Origin: Stramenopiles sp. TOSAG23-3
Lineage: Eukaryota
Direction: 5' to 3'
Length of the DNA stretch: 45,819 nt
Assembly (NCBI GenBank): GCA_900128585.1
Contig: LT642170.1
Span: 1 to 45,819 of the forward strand
Positions 5,296 to 39,893 of the stretch are shown here, piece after piece. The position numbers and the translations under genes are program-made. Each line of letters starts with the position of its first letter. Positions within the stretch are counted from its first letter, which is position 1. Under the pieces are notes generated by a model. It was not told where the DNA came from and did no database searches. It was given only the letters and a program-made list of their open reading frames with translations.

Positions 5296-6992
5296 ATGGA
5301 AATGAAGAAAGCATTTACTACATTCTTATTGTTAGCCGTGACCGTGGTGTCCGCTGCGCCAGAAGCGGACTTGGTCGAAAGTCTTCCTGGTTATGGCCCA
5401 CCACCGTCGAAAATGTACAGTGGGTTTTTAAACGCCTCTGCGGCAGATCCTCTTGCAGCGGTACAACTGCACTACGTTTTCACGGAAACTACGAACCGAA
5501 ATGTGAAGGCCGAGGAGACCCCAGTCGTCCTCTGGCTGAACGGTGGACCAGGATCAAGTAGCGTTCTTGGTTTGATGGAAGAGTGGGGCGCCCTGATCTT
5601 GAACGCAACCGGTGGCCTGTCGCCGAACCCTTACGCATGGACGAACCTTGCAAACATGGTACTACTGGAGTCCCCAAGCGGGGTTGGGTACAGTTATTGC
5701 TCGACAAGCACGACGACGGGATGCGTAAACTCCGACGTTAGCACCGCCCGCGCCGCCCGAGTCGCTATGCAGCAGTTTTTTCAAAAATTTCCCGAGTTCT
5801 CGGGGAGTGAGTTTTACATCACCGGGGAATCTTATGCAGGGGTCTACGTCCCTACACTGGTGAAGGAGATTTTGGACAATGCCCCGGAAATCAACATCAA
5901 GGGCATGGCTGTCGGAGACCCTTGCACGGACAACGAAGCACAGCACGATTCGATGGATATGATTTGGTATGGTCACAAAAAGTAAGTACACTGCATATAA
6001 AAGTCCCCCCCACGCACACCCGCTAAACTAACACCAACACCTTGAAAATATTTTTGCGCAGCGGTTTCGTTGCGGAAGCAACGTTTGACACTTTATGGAA
6101 AAAATGTGGCGCACGCCACCCCGCCAAGCTGATGACCGGAGACATGGCATCCAAGGACCCAAAACCTTCCCACAAAACCATGACAATGAAGCTGACTTCT
6201 ACCGAATGCATTGTTGCCCAGCGCAAGTACTTGGCGTCCACAAGCAAAGGGTTCTCCCAGGTGTGGTTGAACGACTACATCAACAATTTGGACCTCTTTT
6301 CGCCCTCCGCAGTTGTATCGTTCAACCAGCCCGGGTCGTTGAATTATAAACTTGCGGAATGGATGATGCAGGACGACGTTAAGAAAGCCCTGCACGTCGA
6401 CGAGTCCCCGAACAAACAGTGGCCGGGCCCTGGCCCCAAGTGGCAGTACAATCAGCAATGGGCCGCGTGCAACCCAAATCCAGAGTTTAACCAATCGATG
6501 GTTGACTTTTACAAGAACATTGCGCCAAGGTTGGAGGCAAAAGGCGGGCGCACGATCGTTTTCAACGGCGACACCGACCCTTGCGTCAGTTACGAAGGCA
6601 CGCGGGCCGCACTCGCAACCGTGTACCCAGAAGTCCCGGGCGGAGCATACCGACCATGGTTCTACAACAATTCCAAAGCAACGTACGAGTTCTTGGCGAG
6701 CAAGCCCTTGTTGTTCGGGCCAAACTTAGCGTTGGTCGATGCCGGGGCACAGCTTGGTGGCATGGTCGTCAACTACGAACACAACCTGAAGTTTGTTACT
6801 GTCCATGGCAGTGGGCACATGGTCCCTCAGTTTCGACCTCAATCGGCATTGAAACTTTTAAGCAACTTATTGTCTGGCGATTCGTTTGCTGAATTAATTC
6901 CAACCGACGATCAACTTGCTGCATTCACAGACGACCAGTTCAATCAATGGATTGACAAATGGACAATTGCAGCAAAGGAGAACGTCGATTAA
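5296..6992 (+). CDS. Serine carboxypeptidase (peptidase S10), two exons: 5296-5981 and 6062-6992
   Basis: Signal peptide; PVVLWLNGGPGSSS; catalytic Ser motif ITGESYAGVYVP; Asp motif FNGDTDPCV; His motif TVHGSGHMVPQ. Removing intron 5982-6061 joins the two ORFs in frame as YGHKNGFVAE. Confidence 0.95.
5982..6061 (+). other. 80-nt spliceosomal intron
   Basis: GTAAGT donor, CTAAC branch-point-like motif at 6028-6032 and CAG acceptor; removal restores the reading frame. Confidence 0.9.
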
Positions 6993-17910: not shown

Positions 17911-19119
17911 ATGTTTCGAAAAGTTCGTATTTTCTTCCCGTTCGTATGTTTGTGTGGCCTGGTGTGTGGACAAAGGTCTGCGACAATTTCGAACAAGGAG
18001 CCACGTAAAAGTACCGATGGGAACGTGTTAAATGCGCACAGTGGGACTATTGTGTACGTGAACGGCACCTACTTCATGTACGGGGAATATTATGGAAGGG
18101 GGCCTTACATAGTAACGGGGAACGAGCTTTTTCCAAAGCTCAGCGTGTACACGTCGACGGACATGGTAACTTGGAATTATGGTGGGCTTCTTCACAACAA
18201 CAGCAAGGGCGTGGAAGGGGCGCCACCGGTATGGTCCGAGTCGCCCCACTGGAAGTACCACCCGAAAGGCACGTGGTGGTCCCCGTCCGCCGTTTATGAC
18301 AAGCGATCGGACAGCATTATAATCTGGTTCAGTGCAAGCCCCGGGGAGTGCTGCTCGGCATACTTTGGTATTGCAAAGTCAAGGAATGGGGTCAATTTCG
18401 AGTTGGTTTCCCTGTCCGAAACACCAGCTACAAACGTGTCCGTGGATGGAAGTTCGGTTTTGATCGACGACGATGGGGAAGGGTATGTTGCGTACACCGC
18501 AATGGGTGTTCCCGGCCAAGACGCGCACGTTGTTGCAATCGATAAGCTCACGGACGACTATCTGGGGACTGCGAAAACTCAAGTAGGCAATTTTTTTCCA
18601 GACCCGTTCGTTGAAGGCGTTATGCTTTTTAAACGGAAGGGTGTTTACTACCTTTTGTATGGGTCCTGTTGCTGCGCCTGCAGAGAAGGCAGCGGCGCTG
18701 TCGTTCACATGGCGAAAGATATTGCCGGACCTTGGACAAGGCAACCTGGCGGAGACATGAACTGCAAAGCTGGGGAAGACGTGAAAGTGTGCGCGGGCAT
18801 GCCCGCTGGAGCCAAACGAGACCGGCCGACTGGTGAACTGATCATCAATGCCCAGGGAATCGGCCTGTCTGTCTTACCAACTTCTTCCACTGGAGAAGAA
18901 AATACGTATTTATGGATGGGAAGTCGGTGGCTGTCTGCACCGCACAATAACCCAAAATGCACGTCGCTCTGCAGCACGTGTGAACGAGACCATGGATTCA
19001 ATGGGTACGTACGTGGAAACGATTTTGAATATTGGATTCCCCTTGAATTCAATGACAAAACAGGATACGTTCATAAATTCAAAAACTTTGTCAATTCGTA
19101 TCAATTGGAAATCCCATAA
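17911..19119 (+). CDS. Secreted glycoside hydrolase family 43 (five-bladed propeller; GH43_24/exo-beta-1,3-galactanase-like)
   Basis: Signal peptide; DGNVLNAHSGTI..GTYFMYGE; VYTSTDMVTW; LIDDDGEGYVAY; VEGVMLFKRKGVYYLLYGSCCC; IAGPW; INAQ; YWIPLEF. The subfamily assignment is inferred from motifs only. Confidence 0.85.
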   Translation: MFRKVRIFFPFVCLCGLVCGQRSATISNKEPRKSTDGNVLNAHSGTIVYVNGTYFMYGEYYGRGPYIVTGNELFPKLSVYTSTDMVTWNYGGLLHNNSKGVEGAPPVWSESPHWKYHPKGTWWSPSAVYDKRSDSIIIWFSASPGECCSAYFGIAKSRNGVNFELVSLSETPATNVSVDGSSVLIDDDGEGYVAYTAMGVPGQDAHVVAIDKLTDDYLGTAKTQVGNFFPDPFVEGVMLFKRKGVYYLLYGSCCCACREGSGAVVHMAKDIAGPWTRQPGGDMNCKAGEDVKVCAGMPAGAKRDRPTGELIINAQGIGLSVLPTSSTGEENTYLWMGSRWLSAPHNNPKCTSLCSTCERDHGFNGYVRGNDFEYWIPLEFNDKTGYVHKFKNFVNSYQLEIP

Positions 19120-21017: not shown

Positions 21018-22724
21018 ATGCGCCTTTGTAGTTTCAGTCTTTGCACAGTCTTGTTGGCCGTTAGTAGCTGTTGCGTTTTCTCGAAAAAAAAGGATCAAAA
21101 CTTTTTGATCATACTAGCAGATGATTTAGGGTATGGAGATTTGTCTTGCTATGGGCACCCCACGAGTATTACGCCCAATTTGGACCAACTGGCGAACGAA
21201 GGCATGAGGTTTACGCAATTTTACTCAGCGTCTCCTGTCTGCTCTCCTTCGCGCTCCTCGATCGTTACGGGGAGACTTCCCGCTCGAAACGGTGTCTACT
21301 GTGCCAATTCTACAAAGCCTTGCGCCAACCCGACAGACGAAGGATGCTGCAACGGAGTCTTTCTGCCTGGGATGCCAGGTGGTCTACCGCAGAGCGAGGT
21401 GTCTTTCGCAACGGCCTTAAAAGAATCAAACGATTGGAATGGAACAACTGGAATGATTGGGAAATGGCACTTAGGAACCGAAGAAAAGTATTTTCCGACG
21501 ACCGGGCATGGGTTCGATTATTATTACGGAGTACCACACGGGCTGGGGGCTTGCCCTTGTCACGCTTGCTTTGCACCGAATCAAACGTGCGGTATAAAGT
21601 GTCAACCAAATTGGGCGCCGTGCCCCGTCTTTGAAAATCGGGACATCGTACAGCAACCTGCAAATTTAATAACGTTGTCGGATGATTACGTACGTGCCGC
21701 AAAACGTTTTATTCAAAGTGCTGTAGAAGATAAGAAACAGCCGTTTTTGCTCTATTTTGCATCGCACCACACTCACTCTCCACAGTTCGCAGGATTTGAT
21801 ACCACAAACACCACAGCACGGGACCGGTTTGGGGACTCTCTTGCAGAGTTGGACCGATCGGTAGGAAGTTTATTAAGTTTTTTGAAGGAATATGAAGTCG
21901 ATTCCAACACGCTCGTTATTTTCACGTCAGACAACGGGCCAAGTTTGAGGAACGAGATAAGGGGGGGAAATGCTGGTCTTTTAAAGTGCGGCAAAGGGAC
22001 AACTTATGAAGGAGGAATGAGGGTTCCGGCCATCTTTCGTTGGCCCGGGGTGATTCAACCCGGTACCGTTCAAAGAAATGTTGCCTCAGCGTTGGACATA
22101 TTTCCTACAATAATCAACATCGCAAACGGAAAGTCTGCCGTGCCTTCGGAAGGTCAGACTGTAGTGAAGAACATTTTTCATTATTCTCACAAAGATTCCT
22201 ATGGTCGAACGGTACGAAAACAAATTGTACTCGATGGGTACGATATGATCGAACTGTTGCGAGAAAACGATTCCCCAAGCGGCCGTACAGGGCCACGGCA
22301 AGGCAAGCTGGTGTATTACCCCCAGTTTGCCATGCAATCTCGAGGATTGTATGCAGTGCGCACCAACCGAACCAAGGTTCATTTCCATACCGAAGGATCG
22401 CTACAGTCTAATCCTGACAACTCGGACGTTGATTGCAGACCAAGCAGCACGTACAGTACACCGGTACCGCCTCATGTTTACGATCTTGGTGTTGATCCTA
22501 GTGAAAATTATCTTCTCGAGCCAAGCACTGAGCCATTTTCCCACGCGATAGAAAATGCCAAGAGGGTAAGAGAGGAGCACTTGAAACATTTGAAATGGTT
22601 TGGATGGCCGATGTTGAACAATGGAACGTTTGATCGAAAGTTGTGGCCGTGTGCAAAACCTGGTTGCAGTCCTTTTCCACAATGTTGCGTAACTGATCCG
22701 GACGAAAACGTATTCTGGTTGTGA
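21018..22724 (+). CDS. Formylglycine-dependent (S1) sulfatase, arylsulfatase A-like, secreted/lysosomal
   Basis: Signal peptide; NFLIILADDLGYGD; CSPSRSSIVTGR (CxPxR); IGKWHLG; HHTHSPQ; FTSDNGP; CGKGTTYEGGMRVP; DPSE; Cys-rich tail CAKPGCSPFPQCC. Confidence 0.95.
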   Translation: MRLCSFSLCTVLLAVSSCCVFSKKKDQNFLIILADDLGYGDLSCYGHPTSITPNLDQLANEGMRFTQFYSASPVCSPSRSSIVTGRLPARNGVYCANSTKPCANPTDEGCCNGVFLPGMPGGLPQSEVSFATALKESNDWNGTTGMIGKWHLGTEEKYFPTTGHGFDYYYGVPHGLGACPCHACFAPNQTCGIKCQPNWAPCPVFENRDIVQQPANLITLSDDYVRAAKRFIQSAVEDKKQPFLLYFASHHTHSPQFAGFDTTNTTARDRFGDSLAELDRSVGSLLSFLKEYEVDSNTLVIFTSDNGPSLRNEIRGGNAGLLKCGKGTTYEGGMRVPAIFRWPGVIQPGTVQRNVASALDIFPTIINIANGKSAVPSEGQTVVKNIFHYSHKDSYGRTVRKQIVLDGYDMIELLRENDSPSGRTGPRQGKLVYYPQFAMQSRGLYAVRTNRTKVHFHTEGSLQSNPDNSDVDCRPSSTYSTPVPPHVYDLGVDPSENYLLEPSTEPFSHAIENAKRVREEHLKHLKWFGWPMLNNGTFDRKLWPCAKPGCSPFPQCCVTDPDENVFWL

Positions 22725-27222: not shown

Positions 27223-30200
27223 ATGGTGCCGACAAAGTTTGGGATTAAATGCCTTCTTCGATTCGTTCAAAGTTTGCTGGTTTTCGGTGCGCTGGCGAAC
27301 GCTCAGTTTAATATACAGAATTCTGGGTTGAATGAGCGCGGGTGCGGACATGTTGGGCAGACAACCCCAAAAGTTTGCACTGTTTCTCAGGCGATGCAGT
27401 CCAATGGGGTCAACTTTAATGGGTTAGTTGTTGCATTTGCAGCACGACCGCAAAGCAACGGAGTTAACTTTAAAGTCCACAACGTAAAGTTTGGCGACGA
27501 TTACATGGAGAAAGCGGCAGGTTTAGATTACGACGGAATGTTTCCGACAGATACTACCCCGAAAACCAATGGTTGGATGAGTGTGTACTATATTGGCGGC
27601 AATCATTTGGAAGGTGTGACACGCGATATTTCGTACACGCTGACGCCCGATGCCAACAAGGAAATAGGCAAGGTCGTATGGTCTCGTATTCTTGTAAGAG
27701 GAGCAAAGGGAATTGTACCCTTGAAACTGTTCCAAGGTGGGGGTGTTCCCGGAACACAATCGAAAACCATTACAAACACGTTGTACGATACTTATGGTAA
27801 AAGCGTGAATGCCCAATGGTTTGGTTTTATGTTTTTTCGGAAAGAAGCGCAAGCCGACTGCGGCACATGCTTTAACGTCCCGGGCGGTTCTAAAAACACT
27901 GAAATAAAAGCAAAAAGCAACCTGGGTTTTGGAACCTCAAAAGTAACGAGCGGAGAGACCGACGGAGAGGTCACATTTACTTGGGAGCACACATTCGACA
28001 ATTCCCCGTACGGTCACGCAGTTTTTGCGGTGTACCGAGACAAATCGCCTTGCGAAAATCCAAATTTTAGTTGTGGTGCTAATGGGGCCTGCAAAAACAC
28101 TTTTTACAACGACTGCCTATGTAAGAACGGGTACAAAGGGCCATTCTGCCAATACGGTCCACAGCAAATGTACATCCATGACAATGCGTTCCGCAAACGG
28201 CGTTACATCGAATCGCCCGATGCCAACACTAATGCGATACAGATAAAGCACAGCATGCCCCCTCGAAAATACAGTTACCCGTGCACGTTTCTGGAAGACA
28301 TTGAGCTGTTGGGGGAAAACTTCGTCGGTGGGTTCCTGAACATTGTCAACACTACAGGAGAGTGCTGCCAGCTCTGTCAGTCTTACAAGGATTGCAAAGC
28401 GTGGAAATTCGACAAATCCGACGCCAGTGTGGCCACCAGGGGACAGTGCTGGCTTCAAAAAACCGTCGGGGCCCGACGGGAATCGCCGGCCAGCGGCACA
28501 GGTCAACGGTGGGACAGTGGGATTCGCTACGATGCAGAACGCGATTACAATTTCGTATGGCAGTACAAAGGGCAGTGCGATCCTGCCGGGACCAATAACG
28601 ACGATTGGGCGTACCCAGTTACGACGGGCACTGCATCATCGTTCAAGGTTCCCGCTAGGCACAGCATAATTGAAGGCACCGGCAGAAGCAAGGGCATGAA
28701 GTCATGTTATGATCAGTGCAAAACCCAGTTTGACACCGGTGCTAGCCCCTTCGATGAGAATTTCAACGATGGGTACCAGGGAGGAATAAATGTACAGTTC
28801 ACCAACTCTCAATGCTATTGCATGAAACAAAAGTCTTGCCCATCCCCTAGTACTCCTGGTTACAGAACCTTTTCGTACAGAGAGAAAATTGCCCCAGCAA
28901 AAGCTCTTTATGTAGCGACATGCACTAGAAATTCTCACACAGATGGCAACCAAGCTAAAGTTGACCGTGTATACGTCAATGGGCCTGGGATCACCATTAA
29001 CGGGGACCAAGACTACTACAATGGCCTACGAATGACAGAAGTCAAGAACGAGCTCGTTAGTGACAGTTCTACTACTTACGATGTGACCGAACATTTCACT
29101 CAAATGGTCCCGTCACCGTCAGCCGTGAACGTGCCGTCACCAAGTGAAATCACGAGCACTTCACCGTCTCCTAGTGGAAACGAAACGGTCTCGGTCAGCA
29201 CAACGTCGTACGTTCAGGTAAGCTACGAAACTTCTGTCCAGATTTCGGTCCCAACACCAAGCCAAAGAGAAGTCCCGACAAAGTATACAAACTACAGCAG
29301 GCGTTTACAAATATTTAAATTGGTTGGTGGGCTAGGAGCTTCATACAACTCCGGCAACAGCAGGCTGGAAGGAAACCCAAGCGAGACGGAAGACTACTTT
29401 GTAAACATTCACCTAAACAGTGTTGGGCAAAACGCTGGAGGCGTAGCAGTGATGACGTTCAGTGCGGAAGACTTGAAAGGGACGAATGATCTGGATAGTA
29501 CTAAAGTGTTTGGAAATGTTGCGGCTACCGCCACAAAGTCCACGCTGAACGAGACGGATGCAAACAAGTTTAAAAAAGGAGGACTTGCGGTGGACTTTGC
29601 GTGCTTTAATGCCTTTAACTCTGCAAACGGTGGATTCATGTACCATGATTCTACTCAGCAAAATGTAGTCACAGACCACGACACACAGTTGAAAGGTCGA
29701 ATGGACGTGGGGTTTGCCAGTAGCGTTCGCGAGGTTTCAGCAGGCGGGCAATCGTTAGGTTTTCATTGGAGCCGTGGTTCAGACAACTCCGACGCGGGCG
29801 CGTTTCATCATACTATGGTCCACTTGGTCGATGAGTTGACAAAGACCCCAAACGGTGCCCCAACACTAACCCTTGACAGTAGTGGCACCACCGCTACGGT
29901 TGACAGCATGAAAGCCAACTTGACGCTGTCCATAAGCAATACGGGCGTCACGAACGACTATCCTTCCGAGACCGACATTGGACTTGACATTCCCATCCAG
30001 TACCTTGGTCCATATTTTGGAGGAGAGCCACACAATAAAATCATAGGGTTCATCATGGAATACAAAGAGACGGGTGCGTCCAACAAATTTATTCTGCATA
30101 ATTATGTATCTATGGTAAACCCCGAAGAAGGGGGTTCAACAGATGTCCCCAAAGATACCTTTGACATCTTGCCCACTTCGTATTTTTTCGGACACTTGAA

Positions 30201-32121
30201 AGCAGGGACACAATACTCCTTTCGAATGGCGTATGAGAGCACGCAAGGCTTTGGCGACTACAGCCAAACGTTCGACGCCACCACGCCCACCCAGAGCACG
30301 AAGCAAAATTTAGCAAACTTTGCTGTGAGTAGAACGGGTGCGAAAGAGTGCACAATCTCATGGGACGCGCCCTCAGGGACCAATAGGCACGGTTTTAAAT
30401 ACTACTATTTTCAGCAAAAGGAGTACAATTCATTGTACGAGGGACGCGTGTACGGGTACGACGAAACCGCAAACATCTATTCTATAGTGCAGAACAAGTC
30501 TACTATTGCTTCCCCGTACAAACTGGAGAATTTGAATGCAAAAAGCACCTATGACTTCTCACTGGCGTACGTCAACGATGCGGGTGTGGGTGGAGTATCC
30601 GAGGGCCGTTGCGCCCCGCACAGCGTAGTCGCCGCAAGTTCATCGACATTCGAAGACAGGACAACGCTATCGTTTTACACCCCCTATGTAAACAGCGGAG
30701 CGAACGTGGTTTCTACAAACTTTGCCCTCCGGAAACGCCTCATTAGCCCCACGGTGTTTTCCGTATCGCTTAATGTGGAGAGCCCTATGGCCTCTTCGCT
30801 CAACAACGGGTCACTAGGAGGGCAGTACCGCCTTGTTGTTGACGGGCAGTACAGCAATTGCATCAATTGGGACGATTCAGGGGCTGGGGTAGAATCAGCG
30901 ATAGAAGCAATACCCAGCGTGAAGAAGGTTCGAGTTACAAGAAACGACCTTTCCTCCAGATCCAGAGTCTGGAAAGTTACATTCTTAGACAAGGTCGACG
31001 GCACCAGGAAAGTAGAGCCCGATTTTCAATATCAACCAAACGAAAGGCTGGCACGGGCTGTAGTGATCGGAAACGGTACAAACCGAACTTATCATTTTTG
31101 GAGACTCACCAACACCTCCGACCCCGCGCCAGTTCTGTTCTATTTTCACAGCCCGGACGGTGGGATTAATGAGTGCAGAAACGATGGGTGGGTTCAACTC
31201 GCCGCGTCTAGTGGGGCTCACGCCGTCTGCCTCGAGACCACTTCTGCTAGCGAATCCCAATATTTCGAGTGGAAAACTTTTCGTGTGAACTACAAGCTGT
31301 CAAAGCAGAATGCGTGGAAGATCCCACATATTTTGACGGGCGAATCAAACAGGCCATCTACTTTAACTGGAAACTTTGAATCCGGTGCAGGAAACAAGTG
31401 CGATATGAATTTGGCCTCTGCTGCAGACTTATCGTATGTCAACGAAACTTGGTACGATATTTTCAAGATACCGGGCGTCCAAATTGATACAAGCAAAGCC
31501 TACTTGTTGGGAAAAAAAGATGGTGCTGACATGGCCATGTATGTAAGTCAGTGCATGCAATCCACGTTTCAGGCGGTCGGTACCCTCTTCAATGGACTCA
31601 ATAGAGTCTCGATTTACGACGACAAGTGGACATGCCACCCCTACAGCAGCACCGAAAACTCCGCTTCTAACTTCTGCGTCGATGGCGAGCAAAGTCACAA
31701 AAACGGACACTTGGGATGCTGGAACGAAAACCCTGACTATCCTGTTGTATTTGGGTATGGCGCCGACAACGCGCTCCGGGTTGTCAAGGGATCCTCAGGG
31801 GCCATGACGGTGGAAACCTGCCGCACAGAATGCAGTGAATACCTTTATTTTGGAATTAAGAACGGAACGCAGTGCTTTTGTGACAATCGCTACGACACGT
31901 TCGGCCGCGCTGCAGGAGAGTTCAAGTGCTCGATTCCGTGCACGGGCGATGCCAGCACAATGTGCGGTGGGAGAGATGGCGATAGAAGAGAATACGTATC
32001 TGTCTTCACAACTGCGCAACCAGCTCTCCAGCCAAATAAATTGCGAGACTTTTATTATCCTGTTCCTATCGTAAAGAATGATAATCAACATATTGTGATT
32101 GATGACTTTATTTTATACTAA
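27223..32121 (+). CDS. 1632-aa secreted multidomain protein (EGF-like, PAN/Apple, PSPS linker, FN3-like, WSC)
   Basis: Signal peptide; EGF CGANGAC..CLCKNGYKGPFCQ; PAN ECCQLCQSYKDCKAWKF..CWLQ; PSPS repeats; FN3 HLKAGTQYSFRMAY and NLNAKSTYDFSLAYVN; WSC LGCWNE..MTVETCRTEC..YFGIKNGTQCFC..CSIPCTGDASTMCGG. Confidence 0.87.
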   Translation: MVPTKFGIKCLLRFVQSLLVFGALANAQFNIQNSGLNERGCGHVGQTTPKVCTVSQAMQSNGVNFNGLVVAFAARPQSNGVNFKVHNVKFGDDYMEKAAGLDYDGMFPTDTTPKTNGWMSVYYIGGNHLEGVTRDISYTLTPDANKEIGKVVWSRILVRGAKGIVPLKLFQGGGVPGTQSKTITNTLYDTYGKSVNAQWFGFMFFRKEAQADCGTCFNVPGGSKNTEIKAKSNLGFGTSKVTSGETDGEVTFTWEHTFDNSPYGHAVFAVYRDKSPCENPNFSCGANGACKNTFYNDCLCKNGYKGPFCQYGPQQMYIHDNAFRKRRYIESPDANTNAIQIKHSMPPRKYSYPCTFLEDIELLGENFVGGFLNIVNTTGECCQLCQSYKDCKAWKFDKSDASVATRGQCWLQKTVGARRESPASGTGQRWDSGIRYDAERDYNFVWQYKGQCDPAGTNNDDWAYPVTTGTASSFKVPARHSIIEGTGRSKGMKSCYDQCKTQFDTGASPFDENFNDGYQGGINVQFTNSQCYCMKQKSCPSPSTPGYRTFSYREKIAPAKALYVATCTRNSHTDGNQAKVDRVYVNGPGITINGDQDYYNGLRMTEVKNELVSDSSTTYDVTEHFTQMVPSPSAVNVPSPSEITSTSPSPSGNETVSVSTTSYVQVSYETSVQISVPTPSQREVPTKYTNYSRRLQIFKLVGGLGASYNSGNSRLEGNPSETEDYFVNIHLNSVGQNAGGVAVMTFSAEDLKGTNDLDSTKVFGNVAATATKSTLNETDANKFKKGGLAVDFACFNAFNSANGGFMYHDSTQQNVVTDHDTQLKGRMDVGFASSVREVSAGGQSLGFHWSRGSDNSDAGAFHHTMVHLVDELTKTPNGAPTLTLDSSGTTATVDSMKANLTLSISNTGVTNDYPSETDIGLDIPIQYLGPYFGGEPHNKIIGFIMEYKETGASNKFILHNYVSMVNPEEGGSTDVPKDTFDILPTSYFFGHLKAGTQYSFRMAYESTQGFGDYSQTFDATTPTQSTKQNLANFAVSRTGAKECTISWDAPSGTNRHGFKYYYFQQKEYNSLYEGRVYGYDETANIYSIVQNKSTIASPYKLENLNAKSTYDFSLAYVNDAGVGGVSEGRCAPHSVVAASSSTFEDRTTLSFYTPYVNSGANVVSTNFALRKRLISPTVFSVSLNVESPMASSLNNGSLGGQYRLVVDGQYSNCINWDDSGAGVESAIEAIPSVKKVRVTRNDLSSRSRVWKVTFLDKVDGTRKVEPDFQYQPNERLARAVVIGNGTNRTYHFWRLTNTSDPAPVLFYFHSPDGGINECRNDGWVQLAASSGAHAVCLETTSASESQYFEWKTFRVNYKLSKQNAWKIPHILTGESNRPSTLTGNFESGAGNKCDMNLASAADLSYVNETWYDIFKIPGVQIDTSKAYLLGKKDGADMAMYVSQCMQSTFQAVGTLFNGLNRVSIYDDKWTCHPYSSTENSASNFCVDGEQSHKNGHLGCWNENPDYPVVFGYGADNALRVVKGSSGAMTVETCRTECSEYLYFGIKNGTQCFCDNRYDTFGRAAGEFKCSIPCTGDASTMCGGRDGDRREYVSVFTTAQPALQPNKLRDFYYPVPIVKNDNQHIVIDDFILY

Positions 32122-33835: not shown

Positions 33836-33951
33836 TATCTTTCTATCTTTCTTTCTTTCTTCTTTCTTTCTTTGTTTGTTTGTTTGTTTGTTTCTTTCTT
33901 TCTTTCTTTCTTTCGACTCTTTCTTTCTTCTTTCTTTCGACTCTTTCTTTC
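33836..33951 (+). repeat. (TTTC)n/(TTTG)n simple repeat with duplicated TTCGACTCTTTC
   Basis: Read directly from the sequence. Confidence 0.9.
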
Positions 33952-34331
33952 TAAATTATATCAATAGGGTTTATATTAGGTTATTATTAATATAAATATC
34001 TTCTTTCTTCTTCTTCTTCTCATCAAACAAAAGCTAAAGAGAAGAAAGAAGAAGAAAGAGAGGAGAAGAAGAATGAAAAAAATAATATTATTTTTATTTC
34101 ATTCTTCATTTACTACTTTATTACTGGTATTTATTACTACTCTTCTTCTTCACAATTTCAGACAATGAGGAAAACGATTAACGATGAGGAAGAAATTAAA
34201 AACGATCGTTTGGTATTTTTTTAGCATGGCATATAGGTATGTTTTTTGAGATTTCTTTTCTTCATTCTTGGATACTTATTCTGTCTTTATTCTTCGCGTT
34301 GTATAGTTATTGGTGAGAGTGGAAGGATTGT

Positions 34332-34820
34332 ATGTCAAAGTCGGCCCCTGTCCGCATTGTCAATGGGCAAGTCCTTCGTGCTGGGGAGACGCCTAGTGGT
34401 GGTGGTGGTGGTGGTAGTGTTAGTAGTGGTGGCGGTGGCAGGGACTTAGAATCTGGACGGAGCCTTGGCTCGGGGACGGGATCTGCAGGAAACCCTGGGG
34501 CATCGACATTTTCGTCGTTGAATGGTGCGACGGGGATCAATTTTGATGGCAACAACAAGTACAAGTATGGGGCCGTGTTTCTGTTTCTTCTTATGTTTGG
34601 CCTTCGCGCGGCGGTGCCGATGGTAATGCTGTATATTCTTTACCAAGTTTTTTCGACCATTCAACGAACGTCGGCGCATAGGGGGGGCGGATCTAGCGCA
34701 AGTGGACCTTCCCGATCTTCTGGCACGCAGCGACCCGCCAGGACCCCGGGTTCGAACATTCGAACGGTCAGGGATTTGCCGAAACCGCCACCCAGTGCCT
34801 GAGGTCGAGGGGGGTGCTAA
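34332..34820 (+). CDS. Candidate selenoprotein, SELENOK/SELENOS-type small membrane protein (162 aa; Sec157 encoded by TGA 34800-34802; true stop TAA 34818-34820)
   Basis: N-terminal VRIVNGQVL (human SELENOK: VYISNGQVL), a hydrophobic segment and a Gly/Arg/Pro-rich tail. The end reads IRTVRDLPKPPPSA-TGA-GRGGC* (human SELENOK ends PPPMAGGUGR). A SECIS lies about 120 nt downstream of the TGA. Confidence 0.85.
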
Positions 34821-34914
34821 ACCAGCTCTTGTTCGTCGCACAGGTCCGGTTTTGCCCTGTGCTGGTTTAGCCCCCCCATCTCCCCGTTCTGGTTCTGACC
34901 CTATCCTTGTTGGT

Positions 34915-34976
34915 GTAGTATATGACGCGGCACGCATGAAATCTTTCCGTCAAAGAATGCGAGCAGCCGATACTAC
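34915..34976 (+). promoter_or_regulatory. Eukaryotic SECIS element, type II, in the 3' UTR
   Basis: Helix I GTAGT(34915-19)/ACTAC(34972-76). Core ATGAC(34922-26)/CGAT(34968-71) gives tandem G.A/A.G pairs. Helix II GCGGCACGCAT/ATGCGAGCAGC pairs at 9 of 11 positions. Unpaired AAA at 34939-41, then apical mini-stem TCTTT/AAAGA. Confidence 0.88.
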
Positions 34977-35444
34977 CGTGGTGTGGGATAAATATCTAAA
35001 CATATACTATGATATAATATAATTTGTTTTTCTAAGGAACGACCTCCATATTTTGCGGCATGAGATGAGCGAATAATCGCCCACCGTCGCGACAGGTTTA
35101 AACCTCGTTGATGTAATTTGACTAAATAAATCTACAAATGTACAAAGTATTATGCACTTTGTACGGAATATCAGTTGTTTATTTAGGACAACGTGCACAA
35201 TATTAAATATTCCTCCTCTCTTATTATCATATTTATTAATTTTTCCTTTTCACTTTTCAGCTTTTCAGTGTAGTATTAATATTAGAAGTCACTATTGCGC
35301 TGCTGTTAATAGTAGTTAGTAAAATACAGCTTTAAAAAAAATATCACCACGGAAAATGGTCAAGATTTTAATTTTTTACATGAAAAAATTTACCGGGTGT
35401 ATTTTAGATTTTGTTCATAAACCGAGAGGGGCGGACACCGCCTT

Positions 35445-36065
35445 TTACCTCCTCGTCTGCAAGGTCTTCCCTTCCGTGTACCCAAAGTGCCCCATGCTCT
35501 TGGTCGTCACGTTGAAGGTGACTTTGACTATGCCGCAAGACTTGACTCGCGTCACTTCGCGATCTCCGTTCCTGGCCGGAAACTTATTATCTCTAAACTC
35601 AGCAGGGGCGTTCAACAGCCATCCCAGGAACTCCTGCAGGGGCGACGATGCCAGTGGGGCAAACATGTGAACGTACCGCGTGTGCTTTCCCGCGGTCGTA
35701 GGCATAAGCACGGCGCCGTACCCCCGCACGATCAGGCCCCTGTCCACCACCGTAAGGACCAGGCGCGGCCACCCAAAGGCGTTCGTCGACGAAAACGTCG
35801 ACGATATGGGAAAGTTCCACACCACGCTGGCACCGGACCGTGAGGTTTCGTTGACGGAATACTGACTATCGTTGGTTGCGAGCATGGGCCCGTCTTGGAT
35901 TCGCCAATCTGGGCCGTAGGAAAAGTCGTACGTGCACGCGAGTGAGTCGTGCCCGCGAAACATCCCGCTCTCTACTTGACCCGACACGTTCACTAGAAAA
36001 TGCTTCGGGCCATCGTTCGTTTCCCCGGCGACCGCATTCAACCGTGCTCTTGCTATCGCATTCAT
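35445..36065 (-). CDS. B9D1: B9 domain-containing protein 1 (ciliary transition zone, MKS module)
   Basis: FLVNVSGQVESG, YDFSYGPDW, VVWNFPISSTFSSTNAFGWPRLV, VRGYGAV, EFRD..GDREVTRVKS.GIVKVTFNV..FGY. Confidence 0.92.
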   Translation of the reverse strand: MNAIARARLNAVAGETNDGPKHFLVNVSGQVESGMFRGHDSLACTYDFSYGPDWRIQDGPMLATNDSQYSVNETSRSGASVVWNFPISSTFSSTNAFGWPRLVLTVVDRGLIVRGYGAVLMPTTAGKHTRYVHMFAPLASSPLQEFLGWLLNAPAEFRDNKFPARNGDREVTRVKSCGIVKVTFNVTTKSMGHFGYTEGKTLQTRR

Positions 36066-36986: not shown

Positions 36987-39893
36987 ATGTTGTGTCGAGG
37001 TTTTCCCGTTGGGTTTGTTCGTTTGTCATGGCTTTGGTACTTTGCCTTGTTGCCCTTGTCAGGATTTGGGAAGACGCTGGTGGACTTATCCTCCAGGGGA
37101 CAATACGCTACGTGGAAACTGTGCAGGAAAGATTTGTTGGACGCTTTGAACGTGACGGCGAAAGACGTGTCCATGCCAGGGTTTTCTTCGACGCCACTGT
37201 ACGCCTCCCTCTGCTTTCCCGCCGTGGTGCCTGGGACTGCGATGGTGTCCATGCTCGAAAACGGCATGTTTCCCGGGGTGACCGACCCATACTACGACGA
37301 AGACTTGCGAAAGATCCCGGACATTCACGATTCGGGGAAAGCGTTTTACACCTACTACTGGCACGCTTCCGTCAACGTCTCCGAGTTCGCGGGGACGGCC
37401 AGCCCGCTGTCGGTGTACGTTCGGTCCCTGAACTACCGGGCGAATTTTTTCCAGGCCGGGAAAGAGGTGTTTCCGGAGCAGAACGGCGGGAAACCGGCGG
37501 CCGGAATGTTTCACCGCTGGTCGTTTCCGATTGCTCGCACGATGGGCCGGGCCGACGACGACACGGTCTCGTTCGCGATCTTGGTCGCCCCGCCCGATTT
37601 CGTTGGAAAACCCAATTGCGGCCAAGGGGGGGACCACCAAATAGCCAAGAATGCGGCGATCATGCAGTACCTTGCGGGTTGGGATTGGGCGCAGGCGACG
37701 CCGGACCGAAACACTGGCCTATGGGACCAAGTCTCGCTCGTCCTTGCAGGCAACGCACGGGCAACGGTGAACGACGTTCACGTGGAGATCCTGTCCAACA
37801 TCGACGCGTCGGAGACTGGGACAGAGGCAACGGTCGACGTGGGGGTCACCGCAACGGTACACGGCTTCGAGCAAGGCGGGGGGGCGCCCCCGCCCAAGCT
37901 GGTCCTCCGGGCGACCGTGCTGGAAACGAACGAGAGCGCAGCGAGCAAGCCGTTCGAAGTCCCTTCGACAGGCGCGGGCGGGGACAAAGCGGTCGCGCTC
38001 CCCGCGTTGAAAATGGAATCGCCGCAGTATTGGTGGCCGCACACCCACGGGGAGCCCCATTTGTACCACCTGCGCGTTGAGCTTTTCGCGGGGGAGACGC
38101 CGCTGTCCGCGGAGGTGGTGGCCTTTGGGGTGCGCTCCTTTACCAACTACGTGGACGAGAAGACGAGGGGGCGGGTGTTCCTCTGCAACGGGGTGAAAAT
38201 GTTTCTTCAGGGGGGAAATTGGATAGGGACCGACCAGCTGTTACGGTACTCCACGTCCGCGGACCGGTACACGACAGAGGTCCGGCTGCACAGGCAGATG
38301 GGGCTCAACCTGATCCGGGTCTGGGGGGGGGGGATTGCGGAGCGGCCGGAATTTTACGACGCGTGCGACCGGCTCGGGGTCATGGTCTACCAAGAGTTTT
38401 GGATGACGGGGGACAACAATGGGCGGTGGGCGGGGAACTATTCCTGGCCACTGGACCACCAGGTGTACCTGTCGTGCGCAGCAGACGTTGTCAAGATGCT
38501 GCGCAACCACCCCTCTCTCCTGCTGTGGGTAGGGGGCAACGAGCTGTTCCCGGAGAAGCAAAGCCCTCCGCCCGACATAGCGGCGGCCTTGCCGGCCCTT
38601 CTGTCGCAGCTCGACCCCGGGCGATTTTTCATCCCCTCCTCCATGTCCAACTACACCGACTACGACCCCTCCTTCGCCCTTGCGCCCAAAGACGGCCCGT
38701 ACGGCTACCTTGACCCGAAGAGGTTCGACGAACGGAACCCGGGCCTTAAGTTTTGGAACGGGAGCAGTGCCGCTGCCGTGATCTTGGGCTTTCAGCCGGA
38801 GATCGGAAGCTCGGCCACGCCCGTGTACAACAGCGTGGCAAAGTTTGTCAAACACCTGGACGCTTTCCCGTCTGCGTCGAGCGAGACAGTCCCCGCGGCA
38901 TTTTCCTTTCACAATTACCTGTCGTACAACGACGACATGGGCCGGGACCACATCTACACGTACGGCACGCCGCGGAACATGTCCGAGTATTGCCTGTTTG
39001 CGCAGATGGCCCAGTTGTGCCAGGTCAAGGGAATCTTCGAAGGGTTCCAACGGCACATGTTCACGTACTACACGGCAATGCTCTTTTGGAAGACGCAGTC
39101 GCCGTGGCCTAGTTTTCGGGGCCACATGTACGACAATTACCTCGAGACGAATGGAGGGTTCTGGGGTGTTGTCCAAGCCACCGAGGGGGGAAGGAACCCG
39201 TTGCACGTTTCTTTGGGAAATTGGACCGAGGACTTGCAGGTCGTGGTGGTCAACCGTTTCGCCAAAGGGTTTGCGGGATCAACGTTTCGCGTCAGCGCGG
39301 CGTGGTGGCGGTTGAACGGGACCCTGGTCCGTCAGCACGTGCTGGACGTGGAGGGCTCGCTGCTGCAGGGGCACTCCGTCCACTCGGTGGGCCTCGGGGG
39401 CTTCCGGTTCCCGGACGTGCCGAAAGCGTCCTCCACCCCGGAAGTCTTGTACCTTCGGCTGGAGCTTCTGGAAATGACGAGGCAGGCCTTGGCCAGTTTC
39501 AACGATTACTGGCTCAGCGACCCAAGCTTACCCCAGGACTACGCCCAGCTGGGCATGATGCGCGCGAGCGAGGAGGAGCTCTTGCACTTGTGCGCCTCGT
39601 GCACGATTGCAAAGGGCGGGAGCGCGCATTTTGCGTCGCTGAACGTTTCGAACTGCGACGGCGCGGGCATCGCGCTCGCCGTCCGCGTTCGCCTGCGCGA
39701 CGGCCAACTGGGCCCTAGGGAAATTGTGCTAGGAAAGGAGCAGTACACGTACTCCAGTCAGTACTTTTCCTTGCTCCCGGGCGAGTCCAAAGTGGTCTTC
39801 GTCGACACTGCCCGTGGTAGCAGCGCTGATTCCATCCAAGCCGGCATCAACGGGTGGAACGTTGCGAACGTCGCCGTCGAGTGCACAGGGTAA
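36987..39893 (+). CDS. Secreted glycoside hydrolase family 2, mannosylglycoprotein endo-beta-mannosidase-like
   Basis: Signal peptide; AVVPGT, GQGGDHQIAKN, GWDWAQATPDRNTGLWD, WWPH, QGGNWI, NLIRVWGGGIAERPEFYDACD, LRNHPSLLLWVGGNE (acid/base), GFQPEIGS (nucleophile), WKTQSPWP. Confidence 0.93.
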   Translation: MLCRGFPVGFVRLSWLWYFALLPLSGFGKTLVDLSSRGQYATWKLCRKDLLDALNVTAKDVSMPGFSSTPLYASLCFPAVVPGTAMVSMLENGMFPGVTDPYYDEDLRKIPDIHDSGKAFYTYYWHASVNVSEFAGTASPLSVYVRSLNYRANFFQAGKEVFPEQNGGKPAAGMFHRWSFPIARTMGRADDDTVSFAILVAPPDFVGKPNCGQGGDHQIAKNAAIMQYLAGWDWAQATPDRNTGLWDQVSLVLAGNARATVNDVHVEILSNIDASETGTEATVDVGVTATVHGFEQGGGAPPPKLVLRATVLETNESAASKPFEVPSTGAGGDKAVALPALKMESPQYWWPHTHGEPHLYHLRVELFAGETPLSAEVVAFGVRSFTNYVDEKTRGRVFLCNGVKMFLQGGNWIGTDQLLRYSTSADRYTTEVRLHRQMGLNLIRVWGGGIAERPEFYDACDRLGVMVYQEFWMTGDNNGRWAGNYSWPLDHQVYLSCAADVVKMLRNHPSLLLWVGGNELFPEKQSPPPDIAAALPALLSQLDPGRFFIPSSMSNYTDYDPSFALAPKDGPYGYLDPKRFDERNPGLKFWNGSSAAAVILGFQPEIGSSATPVYNSVAKFVKHLDAFPSASSETVPAAFSFHNYLSYNDDMGRDHIYTYGTPRNMSEYCLFAQMAQLCQVKGIFEGFQRHMFTYYTAMLFWKTQSPWPSFRGHMYDNYLETNGGFWGVVQATEGGRNPLHVSLGNWTEDLQVVVVNRFAKGFAGSTFRVSAAWWRLNGTLVRQHVLDVEGSLLQGHSVHSVGLGGFRFPDVPKASSTPEVLYLRLELLEMTRQALASFNDYWLSDPSLPQDYAQLGMMRASEEELLHLCASCTIAKGGSAHFASLNVSNCDGAGIALAVRVRLRDGQLGPREIVLGKEQYTYSSQYFSLLPGESKVVFVDTARGSSADSIQAGINGWNVANVAVECTG

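What the first reader, a model, noticed from the sequence alone, without database searches (positions are those of the whole stretch)
34332..34976. Hidden selenoprotein: in-frame UGA plus a type II SECIS, ending in U-G-R-G-G-C
Seen: the ORF track stops this gene at TGA 34800-34802, but the frame continues GGT CGA GGG GGG TGC TAA. About 120 nt downstream is a hairpin with all the standard SECIS features: helix I, ATGAC/CGAT core, an 11-position helix II, unpaired AAA and an apical mini-stem. Established: SELENOK/SELENOS-type proteins are small ER membrane proteins with a Gly/Pro/basic tail and Sec near the C-terminus; human SELENOK starts MVYISNGQVL and ends PPPMAGGUGR. This protein has VRIVNGQVL and PPPSA-U-GR. 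Inference: it is a real selenoprotein that standard gene callers would truncate. It has an extra terminal Cys five residues after Sec (UxxxxC) that could form an intramolecular selenenylsulfide, and human SELENOK has no such Cys.
Basis: partly seen in the sequence, partly recalled or inferred. Interest (0 to 1): 0.9.

Follow-up and report, generated by a model that had tools for sequence, protein, structure and literature searches.

The report
Truncated SelK-like selenoprotein gene, marine protist
This is a real but ordinary kind of hidden gene: a small membrane protein whose apparent stop codon almost certainly encodes selenocysteine, belonging to an unannotated SelK-like family of diatoms, brown algae and uncultured marine protists.

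Summary
ORF 34332-34802 stops at TGA; the frame goes on GGT CGA GGG GGG TGC TAA. A SECIS-shaped hairpin lies at 34915-34976, 122 nt after the TGA.

The decisive evidence is comparative. All 8 related metagenome loci (6 lineages with the window) have TGA at this codon, then 3-6 more codons. Cys is the last residue in 5 of 6 lineages and follows Sec directly in the sixth. Between L001 and L002 the four differences among the six post-TGA sense codons are all synonymous. An AUGA...AA...GA hairpin lies 114-180 nt downstream in every lineage. TGA ends 9 other ORFs of 150 aa or more here, so the code is not reassigned. RNA contigs run colinearly across the TGA to 34949.

The protein has a SelK-like layout: N-terminal IVNG motif, one membrane helix, Gly/Ser/Arg tail, DLPKPPPSA-U. 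Pfam's SelK_SelG model does not match it; only 3 of 33 relatives match, below threshold. No Rfam SECIS model matches the window. The Sec machinery could not be checked.

Verdict: genuine selenoprotein, probably a divergent SelK. New member of a known kind; moderate interest.

The parts
34332..34820 (+). Full coding sequence of the selenoprotein: 162 residues with Sec at 157, ending in the true stop TAA 34818-34820
   Evidence: RNA contigs are colinear with the genome over 34277-34949 and show no joints. Relatives start at the same place, M-x(0-12)-[VK][RK]IVNG.
34350..34376 (+). Conserved N-terminal motif VRIVNGQVL (residues 7-15)
   Evidence: Alignment A2 has G10 nearly invariant within the I-V-N-G-x-V block. 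An [IVL]x[NDE]G motif lies within the first 60 residues in 29 of 44 relatives.
34396..34440 (+). Gly/Ser low-complexity linker (GGT repeats), variable in length among relatives
   Evidence: read laying skipped 34387-34445 as a repeat.
34566..34643 (+). Predicted single transmembrane helix (about residues 79-104)
   Evidence: The Kyte-Doolittle 19-residue window peaks at 2.25 for residues 82-100. It is the only stretch above 1.6. The hydrophobic block aligns in all relatives.
34773..34799 (+). Conserved Pro-rich motif DLPKPPPSA directly before Sec
   Evidence: D, P, P, P are invariant and L, K nearly invariant in A2. The motif occurs in 40 of 44 relatives.
34800..34802 (+). TGA read as selenocysteine (U157)
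   Evidence: TGA sits at the homologous codon in 8 of 8 loci and is never TAA, TAG or a Cys codon. TGA ends 9 other ORFs of 150 aa or more in the window, so it is otherwise a stop.
34803..34817 (+). Post-Sec tail G-R-G-G-C; Cys162 is the C-terminal residue
   Evidence: Tails in the loci are USRGSGC, UAGRSC, UGPNMC and UCKV. L001 and L002 differ at 4 of the six tail sense codons, all synonymously.
34915..34976 (+). SECIS element (form 2): helix I, AUGA/GA core, helix II, unpaired AAA, apical mini-stem
   Evidence: Equivalent hairpins follow the TGA in the other lineages. An RNA contig of run X15 reaches 34949, inside the element. Rfam gave no match.

Best explanation
**Gene.** 34332-34820 is an intronless gene for a 162-residue single-pass membrane selenoprotein. 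Ribosomes reaching UGA 34800 are directed by the 3'-UTR SECIS at 34915-34976 to insert selenocysteine. This is the standard eukaryotic route via SBP2, eEFSec and tRNA-Sec, and that machinery is inferred, not shown. Translation then adds G-R-G-G-C and ends at UAA 34818.

**Protein layout.** It has a short conserved N-terminal IVNG motif, a variable Gly/Ser linker and one transmembrane helix. A disordered Gly/Ser/Arg tail follows, ending DLPKPPPSA-U-GRGG-C.

**Family.** It is most likely a very divergent homologue of selenoprotein K. It belongs to an unannotated family found in diatoms, a brown alga and uncultured marine protists.

**Likely function (inference).**
- The polyproline motif docks a partner.
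- The flexible Sec-bearing tail acts at the membrane surface as SELENOK does in the ER (ERAD, or as cofactor of a DHHC palmitoyltransferase).
- The conserved C-terminal Cys serves as resolving residue for an intramolecular selenenylsulfide.
For: **Shown**
- In-frame TGA followed by a 5-codon tail and TAA.
- TGA at the same codon in 8 of 8 related loci, representing 6 lineages with the window. Each has a 3-6 codon tail. It ends in Cys in 5 of 6 lineages and reads U-C-K-V in the sixth.
- L001 and L002 differ at 4 of the six tail sense codons, all synonymously, and stop at the same position (TAG versus TAA). Identity is 0.79 over TGA plus tail, against 0.58 in the 100 nt after the stop.
- SECIS: the only pattern hit in the window, with about 0.002 expected at such a place.
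- AUGA...AA...GA hairpins lie 114-180 nt after the TGA in L002-L006 and L008 by pattern. L001 and L007 show them by reading and folding.
- Helix II positions 1-5 next to the core pair in 29 of 30 cells, with 2-4 pair types per position.
- The L008 hairpin matches Rfam SECIS_5 full-length, at 25.1 bits and E 0.61, below threshold.
- TGA ends 9 other ORFs of 150 aa or more in the window, among them the sulfatase and LRR genes. The code is therefore standard.
- RNA-library contigs bridge the TGA and the true stop: X15 covers 34471-34949 and X18 (polyA library) covers 34638-34899.
- Of 44 relatives, 40 carry the C-terminal motif and 39 of those end 2-5 residues after it.

**SelK likeness**
- One transmembrane helix.
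- SelK_SelG is the Pfam family matched by most relatives, 3 of 33, best E 0.0034 against the whole library.
- The pre-Sec motif PPP-x-A(-G-G) resembles the human SelK peptide HLRGSPPPMAGG. P0037 ends PPPRAGG.
Against: - No Rfam SECIS model matched the window at E<=10.
- A covariance model built from the window's hairpin alone recovered only the L008 element, at E 4.1.
- Pfam gives nothing for this protein at E<=10. All 3 SelK_SelG matches among 33 relatives are below the gathering score: 18.4 and 13.8 bits for the two I identified, against 23.3. They fall in a Gly/Ser/Pro-rich region where scores can be inflated by composition.
- The protein-atlas look-ups named no SelK cluster.
- My SECIS pattern and my choice of the 3' GA partner were made after seeing the hairpins, so the pairing counts lean towards the structure.
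- tRNA-Sec, SBP2, eEFSec, PSTK, SepSecS and SPS2 could not be looked for. No genome is held and none of these lies in the window.
- The protein is 162 residues with the helix in the middle. Human SELENOK is about 94 residues with the helix near the N-terminus (recalled, not from a call).
- RNA libraries can contain DNA, and depth was low at 3-5.
Confidence: 0.65

Rival explanations
1. It is a genuine selenoprotein but not a SelK homologue. It would be an independent stramenopile family that converged on the same layout: a small membrane anchor, a disordered Gly/Pro-rich tail and a penultimate Sec.
For: - Pfam SelK_SelG is below threshold everywhere: 0 hits for the window protein and 3 of 33 relatives at 18.4 bits or less.
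- The atlas lists only unnamed clusters.
- There is a long insert between the N-terminal motif and the helix.
- Published surveys list no SelK for Thalassiosira pseudonana (PMC2375036, Table 2). They rank SELENOK among the least widely distributed algal selenoproteins (PMC7539508, passage).
Against: - SelK_SelG is still the family matched most often. It was the hypothesis named in advance, so the library-wide E-values understate the match.
- The PPP-x-A-G-G-U ending of some members parallels the human peptide.
- SelK is notoriously divergent (PMC3753652).
Confidence: 0.27
2. TGA 34800 is an ordinary stop. On this view the short tail and the hairpin are conserved for another reason, such as Sec-independent stop-codon readthrough or a 3'-UTR regulatory stem-loop.
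For: - No curated SECIS model matches the window.
- The Sec machinery was not shown.
- Every database entry is called as ending at the TGA.
Against: - An invariant TGA, never TAA or TAG, in 8 of 8 loci across 6 lineages.
- Synonymous-only change in the tail.
- Hairpins that share the AUGA / AA / GA signature of SECIS while their helix sequences differ.
Confidence: 0.05
3. It is a chance ORF or a pseudogene, and the hairpin is a coincidence.
For: - A SECIS-pattern hit somewhere in a window of this size occurs in 55 of 200 shuffles.
- The folding energy is unremarkable.
Against: - Forty-three relatives with E<=0.01 to the family profile, some from named diatom transcriptomes.
- RNA contigs cover the gene.
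- The motifs are conserved.
Confidence: 0.02

Closest known systems
Selenoprotein K (SELENOK / SelK, Pfam PF10961 SelK_SelG)
   Same: - Small single-pass membrane protein with a disordered Gly/Pro/basic-rich tail.
- A polyproline stretch lies directly before a Sec placed a few residues from the C-terminus.
- The gene is truncated by gene callers and a SECIS sits shortly after the stop.
- Human SelK ends ...HLRGSPPPMAGG before Sec. This family ends DLPKPPP-S-A, or -R-A-G-G, before Sec.
- SELENOK is an ER membrane protein that binds DHHC6 through an SH3-binding element, and its Sec92 supports the acyl-enzyme intermediate (PMC5789314, abstract and passages).
   Different: - The Pfam model is below its threshold.
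- The protein has 162 residues, with a long low-complexity insert between the N-terminal motif and the helix.
- The tail after Sec is longer and ends in a conserved Cys.
- ER location and partners are untested.
Kinetoplastid SelK (Lobanov et al. 2006, PMC1557815)
   Same: - Protist 'distant homologs of mammalian SelK' with Sec near the C-terminus, 'within predicted redox motifs', and a predicted transmembrane motif.
- The genes are intronless, with the SECIS about 200 nt after the UGA in Trypanosoma.
- They were unannotated or misannotated (abstract and passages).
   Different: - The host is different. This window carries sulfatase, GH2, GH43, WSC/PAN and a B9 cilium gene on both strands, and its relatives are from diatoms and a brown alga.
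- T. cruzi SelK is given as 9.5 kDa. This protein is far larger.
- I could not see the paper's figures, so the Cys positions could not be compared.
Selenoprotein S (SELENOS)
   Same: A membrane-anchored protein with a disordered tail and Sec near the C-terminus. An intramolecular Cys-Sec selenenylsulfide is described for the human protein (recalled, not from a call). That is the chemistry proposed here for U157 and C162.
   Different: - No Pfam match to a Selenoprotein S family for the window protein or among the families listed for the 33 relatives at E<=10.
- In SELENOS the Cys lies upstream of Sec (recalled). Here it is downstream and C-terminal.
Thioredoxin reductase C-terminal redox tail
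   Same: A flexible C-terminal tail carrying Sec and a neighbouring Cys that form a selenenylsulfide (recalled). Lineage L008 has U and C adjacent.
   Different: No flavoprotein domain is present. In 5 of 6 lineages the spacing is 4 or 5 residues and the Cys follows Sec.

Membership tests
Eukaryotic SECIS-dependent selenoprotein gene | In-frame UGA conserved at the same codon in homologues | tested here: met
   8 of 8 loci have TGA at the codon 2-3 residues after PP(P). None has TAA, TAG or a Cys codon there.
Eukaryotic SECIS-dependent selenoprotein gene | Protein-level conservation downstream of the UGA | tested here: met
   A tail of 3-6 codons, with Cys last in 5 of 6 lineages. L001 versus L002: 4 of 4 sense-codon differences in the tail are synonymous, and the stop is in the same place.
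Eukaryotic SECIS-dependent selenoprotein gene | SECIS element in the 3' UTR: AUGA/GA core, helix II, unpaired AA, correct strand and distance | tested here: met
   Window 34915-34976. Hairpins with the same signature lie 114-180 nt after the TGA in all 6 lineages. The pattern is my own and was written after seeing the hairpin.
Eukaryotic SECIS-dependent selenoprotein gene | Recognition by a curated SECIS covariance model | tested here: not met
   Rfam gave no match in 34600-35300 at E<=10. Among six loci only L008 matched SECIS_5, at 25.1 bits against a gathering score of 50. SECISearch3 is not available here.
Eukaryotic SECIS-dependent selenoprotein gene | Sec machinery (tRNA-Sec, SBP2, eEFSec, PSTK, SepSecS, SPS2) in the same genome | not testable with these tools
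   No genome is held for the window. No tRNA lies in the window, and none of these families appears among the 19 ORFs scanned.
Eukaryotic SECIS-dependent selenoprotein gene | Cys-containing homologues at the Sec position | tested here: inconclusive
   P0038 ends ...PPPKSC and P0043 ends ...PPAKC, with Cys at or next to the Sec column. P0040 reads W there and then DHVC. Their DNA was not seen.
Eukaryotic SECIS-dependent selenoprotein gene | SECIS lies within the mRNA | tested here: inconclusive
   A contig of an RNA library (X15) runs from 34471 to 34949, through the TGA, the true stop and the 5' half of the SECIS. Depth was 3.6, and contigs cannot show ends or exclude DNA.
Selenoprotein K (PF10961 SelK_SelG) | Match to the family profile above its gathering score | tested here: not met
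   The window protein gave 0 families at E<=10. Among relatives, 3 of 33 matched: P0043 at 18.4 bits, P0025 at 13.8 bits and a third not identified. The cut-off is 23.3.
Selenoprotein K (PF10961 SelK_SelG) | Small protein with one transmembrane helix | tested here: met
   One hydrophobic stretch, residues about 79-104, with a Kyte-Doolittle peak of 2.25. The length is 162 residues.
Selenoprotein K (PF10961 SelK_SelG) | Sec a few residues from the C-terminus, preceded by a polyproline (SH3-binding type) motif in a Gly-rich tail | tested here: met
   The window protein ends ...DLPKPPPSA-U-GRGGC. The human peptide is HLRGSPPPMAGG. An SH3-binding element is reported for SELENOK (PMC5789314).
Selenoprotein K (PF10961 SelK_SelG) | N-terminal I-x-N-G-Q-V-L type motif | not testable with these tools
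The motif is conserved within this family.
Selenoprotein K (PF10961 SelK_SelG) | ER membrane location and binding to ERAD or DHHC6-type partners | not testable with these tools
   Needs experiments.
Selenoprotein S | Match to the family profile | tested here: not met
   No such family appeared for the window protein or among the 21 families listed for the 33 relatives.

The most novel reading that the evidence does not exclude
This gene would be one member of a stramenopile-wide, so far unnamed selenoprotein family found in diatoms, brown algae and uncultured marine protists. On this reading the family is the 'missing' SelK of these lineages. It differs from animal SelK in having an obligatory C-terminal resolving Cys (U-x4-5-C-COOH, or U-C). 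The membrane-anchored tail would then cycle through an intramolecular selenenylsulfide, like a thioredoxin-reductase tail tethered to a membrane, rather than acting through a lone Sec.
Probability: 0.35. Interest if true: 0.55.

Novelty: new member of a known kind. Interest (0 to 1): 0.38.

Why it matters
- **Annotation.** Every one of the 44 database relatives I saw is unnamed. Of these, 39 are called as ending 2-5 residues after the D-L-P-K-P-P motif, which is where the UGA falls in the loci. The family is a clean example of systematic mis-annotation of selenoproteins in marine protist genomes and metatranscriptomes.
- **Selenoproteome surveys.** Published surveys list no SelK for Thalassiosira pseudonana and rank SELENOK among the rarest algal selenoproteins (PMC2375036, PMC7539508). 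Members of this family come from Thalassiosira, Stephanopyxis and Leptocylindrus transcriptomes. Those gaps may therefore reflect divergence rather than loss.
- **Chemistry.** The conserved Cys after Sec gives a testable handle on what the SelK-type tail does chemically.
- **Limits.** The kind of gene, the recoding mechanism and the reason it is missed are all textbook.

Tried and rejected
- **Rfam on the window.** A cmscan of 34600-35300 at E<=10 gave nothing.
- **Rfam on six loci.** Only L008 gave a subthreshold SECIS_5 match, plus AT-repeat 'miRNA' noise.
- **MAFFT alignment of six SECIS regions.** It did not align the cores, so fold_alignment and the count of structure pairs were not used.
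- **Covariance model R1.** It was built from the window hairpin alone (two identical rows). It was too specific: among the family's hairpins only the L008 element was recovered, at E 4.1, and the other listed matches lie elsewhere.
- **First metagenome scan.** With P0002 alone, 593 pattern matches were found and none was confirmed. The second scan, with alignment A2, gave L001-L008.
- **'Shorter' protein search.** No hits.
- **PDB sequence search with the A2 profile.** It gave only weak matches to membrane proteins, best E 0.15.
- **Protein atlas.** It listed unnamed eukaryotic clusters (commonest Bacillariophyta, then Oomycota) and a DUF4605 cluster at 0.83-0.86. These are leads only, and no SelK cluster appeared.
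- **Genome access.** No genome is held for the window, and the records behind the loci are not held for family searches. The Sec machinery and a directed SelK_SelG search of the loci were therefore impossible.
- **Read laying.** The stretches 34116-34276 and 34980-35357 had no cover in the four RNA runs.
- **Trypanosomatid origin.** This was my first guess from the one-strand ORFs. I rejected it on the gene content and on the relatives' taxa.
- **Global TGA reassignment.** Rejected.
- **Earlier findings.** Both look-ups were empty.
- **Papers.** PMC3695291 (Aureococcus selenoproteome) is not held. Supplements of the selenoproteome papers are closed and may list SelK-like genes of diatoms that I could not see.
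Full report
**1. The observation**

The ORF starts at ATG 34332 and reaches TGA at 34800-34802 after 156 sense codons. The frame continues GGT CGA GGG GGG TGC and ends at TAA 34818-34820. Read with TGA as Sec, the product has 162 residues and ends ...DLPKPPPSA-U-GRGG-C.

The hairpin at 34915-34976 has these parts:
- Helix I, GUAGU/ACUAC.
- An AUGA core at 34922-34925, followed by C, opposite CGAU at 34968-34971.
- An 11-position helix II with 9 pairs, one G.A mismatch and one A.A mismatch.
- Unpaired AAA at 34939-34941.
- A 5-bp apical mini-stem with loop CCGUC.

**2. Is it more than chance?**

- A SECIS-consensus pattern of my own found exactly one site in the window on both strands, and it is this one.
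- In 200 dinucleotide-preserving shuffles the mean was 0.325 hits per window, and 55 of 200 shuffles had at least one. A hit somewhere is therefore not special.
- A hit on the right strand within 500 nt after a given codon is expected about 0.002 times.
- I wrote the pattern after seeing the hairpin, which flatters it.
- Folding energy is unremarkable: z -0.18 for 91 nt, and z -2.16 for the exact 62 nt, with 5 of 200 shuffles as stable.
- No Rfam family, including the SECIS models, matched 34600-35300 at E<=10.

On the window alone the case would be suggestive but open.

**3. Relatives**

Protein searches:
- Word-based and HMMER searches with the ORF gave 3 and 7 proteins.
- A profile of six of them gave 43 proteins at E<=0.01 among 8000 scored candidates.
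- With P0004 this makes 44 proteins, P0002-P0045.
- None has a precomputed Pfam domain or a functional name.

Where named, they come from stramenopiles:
- Diatom transcriptomes of Stephanopyxis turris, Leptocylindrus aporus and Thalassiosira antarctica.
- The brown alga Ectocarpus fasciculatus.

C-terminal ends:
- 40 of 44 carry the motif D-[LY]-[PS]-[KP]-P-P.
- 39 of those 40 end 2-5 residues after it.
- The exception, P0040, reads W at the Sec column and then DHVC.
- The 4 without the motif are a fragment (P0003) and garbled or frame-shifted calls (P0004, P0020, P0045).

For alignment A2 I used 33 of the 44. I dropped those four, plus P0013, P0015, P0022, P0023, P0030, P0034 and P0042, which are near-duplicates, N-terminally extended calls or a fragment.

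**4. DNA of relatives**

The first metagenome scan, with P0002 alone, confirmed nothing. The second, with A2, returned 8 loci:
- L005 is nearly identical to the window, with one His/Pro difference.
- L002, L003 and L004 form one lineage.
- With the window this makes 6 lineages.

All 8 loci have TGA at the homologous codon, and then a short in-frame tail:

| Lineage | Tail after the Pro-rich motif |
|---|---|
| Window / L005 | U-GRGG-C |
| L001 | U-SRGSG-C |
| L002-L004 | U-SRGSG-C |
| L006 | U-AGRS-C |
| L007 | U-GPNM-C |
| L008 | U-C-K-V |

Cys is the last residue in 5 of 6 lineages and is adjacent to Sec in the sixth.

L001 and L002 differ at 4 of the six tail sense codons, all synonymously. 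Their stops, TAG and TAA, are in the same place. Identity is 0.79 over TGA plus tail, 0.62 in the 150 nt before the TGA and 0.58 in the 100 nt after the stop. The tail is therefore translated and under selection, which a true stop at TGA cannot explain.

**5. SECIS in relatives**

- A looser version of the pattern found a candidate 114-180 nt after the TGA in L002, L003, L004, L005, L006 and L008. It found none in L001 or L007, and gave two extra hits in L008 at +19 and +273.
- Reading and folding L001 and L007 shows AUGA-helix-AAA-helix-GA hairpins there too.
- Anchored on the cores, helix II positions 1-5 pair in 29 of 30 cells, with 2-4 pair types per position. The helix is kept while its sequence changes. 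The 3' partner was chosen to maximise pairing, so this is descriptive rather than an unbiased test.
- The L008 hairpin matches Rfam SECIS_5 over its full length, at 25.1 bits and E 0.61 against a gathering score of 50.
- MAFFT could not align the elements. A covariance model from the window hairpin alone was too specific.

**6. Other checks**

- *Genetic code.* TGA ends 10 of the 20 ORFs of 150 aa or more that I examined in the window. That is 9 besides this gene, including the Pfam-supported sulfatase (followed at once by a second stop) and the LRR gene. TGA is therefore not globally reassigned.
- *Expression.* Contigs from four RNA libraries of three studies lie colinearly on the gene with no joints:

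| Run | Library | Span |
|---|---|---|
| X17 | polyA | 34277-34584 |
| X16 | oligo-dT | 34304-34769 |
| X15 | metatranscriptome | 34471-34949 |
| X18 | polyA | 34638-34899 (ends in adapter letters) |

  X15 and X18 bridge the TGA and the true stop, and X15 reaches into the SECIS. Depth was low, and contigs show neither ends nor strand.
- *Sec machinery.* It could not be tested. No genome is held, no tRNA lies in the window, and no such family appears among the 19 ORFs scanned.

**7. What the protein is**

Layout:
- N-terminal motif VRIVNGQVL, with the I-V-N-G block conserved in the family.
- A variable Gly/Ser/Asn linker.
- One hydrophobic helix, residues about 79-104.
- A Gly/Ser/Arg-rich tail.
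- G-S-N-I-[RK]-x-[VI]-x-D-L-P-K-P-P-P-x-x-U.

This is the architecture of selenoprotein K. For comparison:
- Human SelK ends HLRGSPPPMAGG before Sec (bioRxiv 10.1101/2025.03.31.646306, passages). Family member P0037 ends PPPRAGG.
- SELENOK is an ER membrane protein with an SH3-binding element that binds DHHC6. Its Sec92 stabilises the acyl-enzyme intermediate (PMC5789314, abstract and passages).

Membership is not shown:
- Pfam gives nothing for the window protein at E<=10.
- SelK_SelG is the family matched by most relatives, but only 3 of 33, all below the 23.3-bit cut-off. P0043 scored 18.4 bits at E 0.0034 and P0025 scored 13.8 bits at E 0.089.
- Those E-values are for the whole library of 24736 models. 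SelK was the hypothesis named in advance, so they understate the match. Against that, the matched region is compositionally biased.
- The atlas named no SelK cluster.

I therefore call it SelK-like, probably a distant homologue (about two in three). I keep an independent family as the main rival.

**8. Mechanism**

Shown:
- A conserved UGA.
- A translated tail.
- SECIS-shaped hairpins.

Inferred:
- SECIS/SBP2/eEFSec-dependent insertion of Sec at residue 157.
- A membrane-anchored protein whose flexible tail presents Sec.
- The conserved C-terminal Cys resolves a selenenylsulfide. This resembles the Cys-Sec pairs of SELENOS and thioredoxin reductase, which I recall rather than draw from a call.
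- The polyproline motif docks a partner.

**9. Novelty**

- SelK-type selenoproteins in protists, truncated or missed by annotation, have been described since 2006 (PMC1557815, abstract and passages; PMC2375036, passages). The kind is known.
- What may be new is the family itself. Lobanov et al. 2007 list no SelK for Thalassiosira pseudonana (Table 2).
- Jiang et al. 2020 place SELENOK among the least widely distributed algal selenoproteins (passage). Yet members of this family occur in three diatom transcriptomes.
- My literature checks were full-text searches. Supplements are closed and the Aureococcus selenoproteome paper is not held, so I cannot say the family is unpublished.

**10. Verdict**

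- SelK membership is probable but unproven.
- The terminal Cys is conserved and worth a test.
- Interest is moderate.

Noticed in passing
window 5296-5985 and 6132-6992 (+): A serine carboxypeptidase (Peptidase_S10) is split over two ORFs that match profile positions 5-198 and 275-419. This points to an intron or a frameshift between them, so the genome is not wholly intronless.
   Followed up: no
window 34678; L005: A>C variant (His116 to Pro) in contigs of three RNA runs and in metagenome locus L005. Probably a strain polymorphism in the disordered tail.
   Followed up: partly
window 35445-36065 (-), 21018-22724, 17911-19119, 36987-39893, 27223-32121 (+): The neighbours are a B9-C2 ciliary basal-body protein, a sulfatase, GH43 and GH2 glycosidases and a WSC/fn3/PAN protein. 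This points to a flagellated marine protist with secreted polysaccharide-degrading enzymes. The stretch is held by many marine metagenome runs.
   Followed up: partly
protein P0020 (from a 455-kb contig): Its first 87 residues match the P0006 group, and then it runs in another frame. Back-reading that frame is consistent with ...DLPKPPP-x-x-[TGA or CGA]-... in the true frame. I take it to be a frame-shifted or intron-misread gene call of the same family (my own reading, not computed).
   Followed up: no
protein P0040: It reads ...DLPKPPPS-W-DHVC. W sits at the Sec column and the tail ends in Cys. This looks like a TGA translated as Trp by the caller. The DNA was not seen.
   Followed up: no
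proteins P0007, P0025, P0031, P0036, P0037: Five of the 40 motif-bearing relatives end in -GG just before the presumed Sec, like the human SelK fragment PPPMAGG, which is the KLHDC2 C-end degron ligand. Whether truncated products are cleared in the same way in protists is unknown. The window's own truncated end would be -SA.
   Followed up: no
L001 487-610; L007 570-634: In L001 a 10-bp outer helix (GUUGCAACUU/AGGUUGCAAC) encloses the SECIS plus an extra 5' hairpin. In L007 a separate strong hairpin directly precedes the SECIS. I cannot say what these are for.
   Followed up: no
window 33900-34075: TTC/CTT-rich simple repeats upstream of the gene attract very deep short RNA contigs, with loose ends that belong to other sequences. 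This is a repeat artefact and not expression of this locus.
   Followed up: no
window 34446-34937 (-): A 163-residue antisense ORF overlaps the gene. It is Arg/Pro-rich and is most likely a shadow of the GC-rich coding strand.
   Followed up: no
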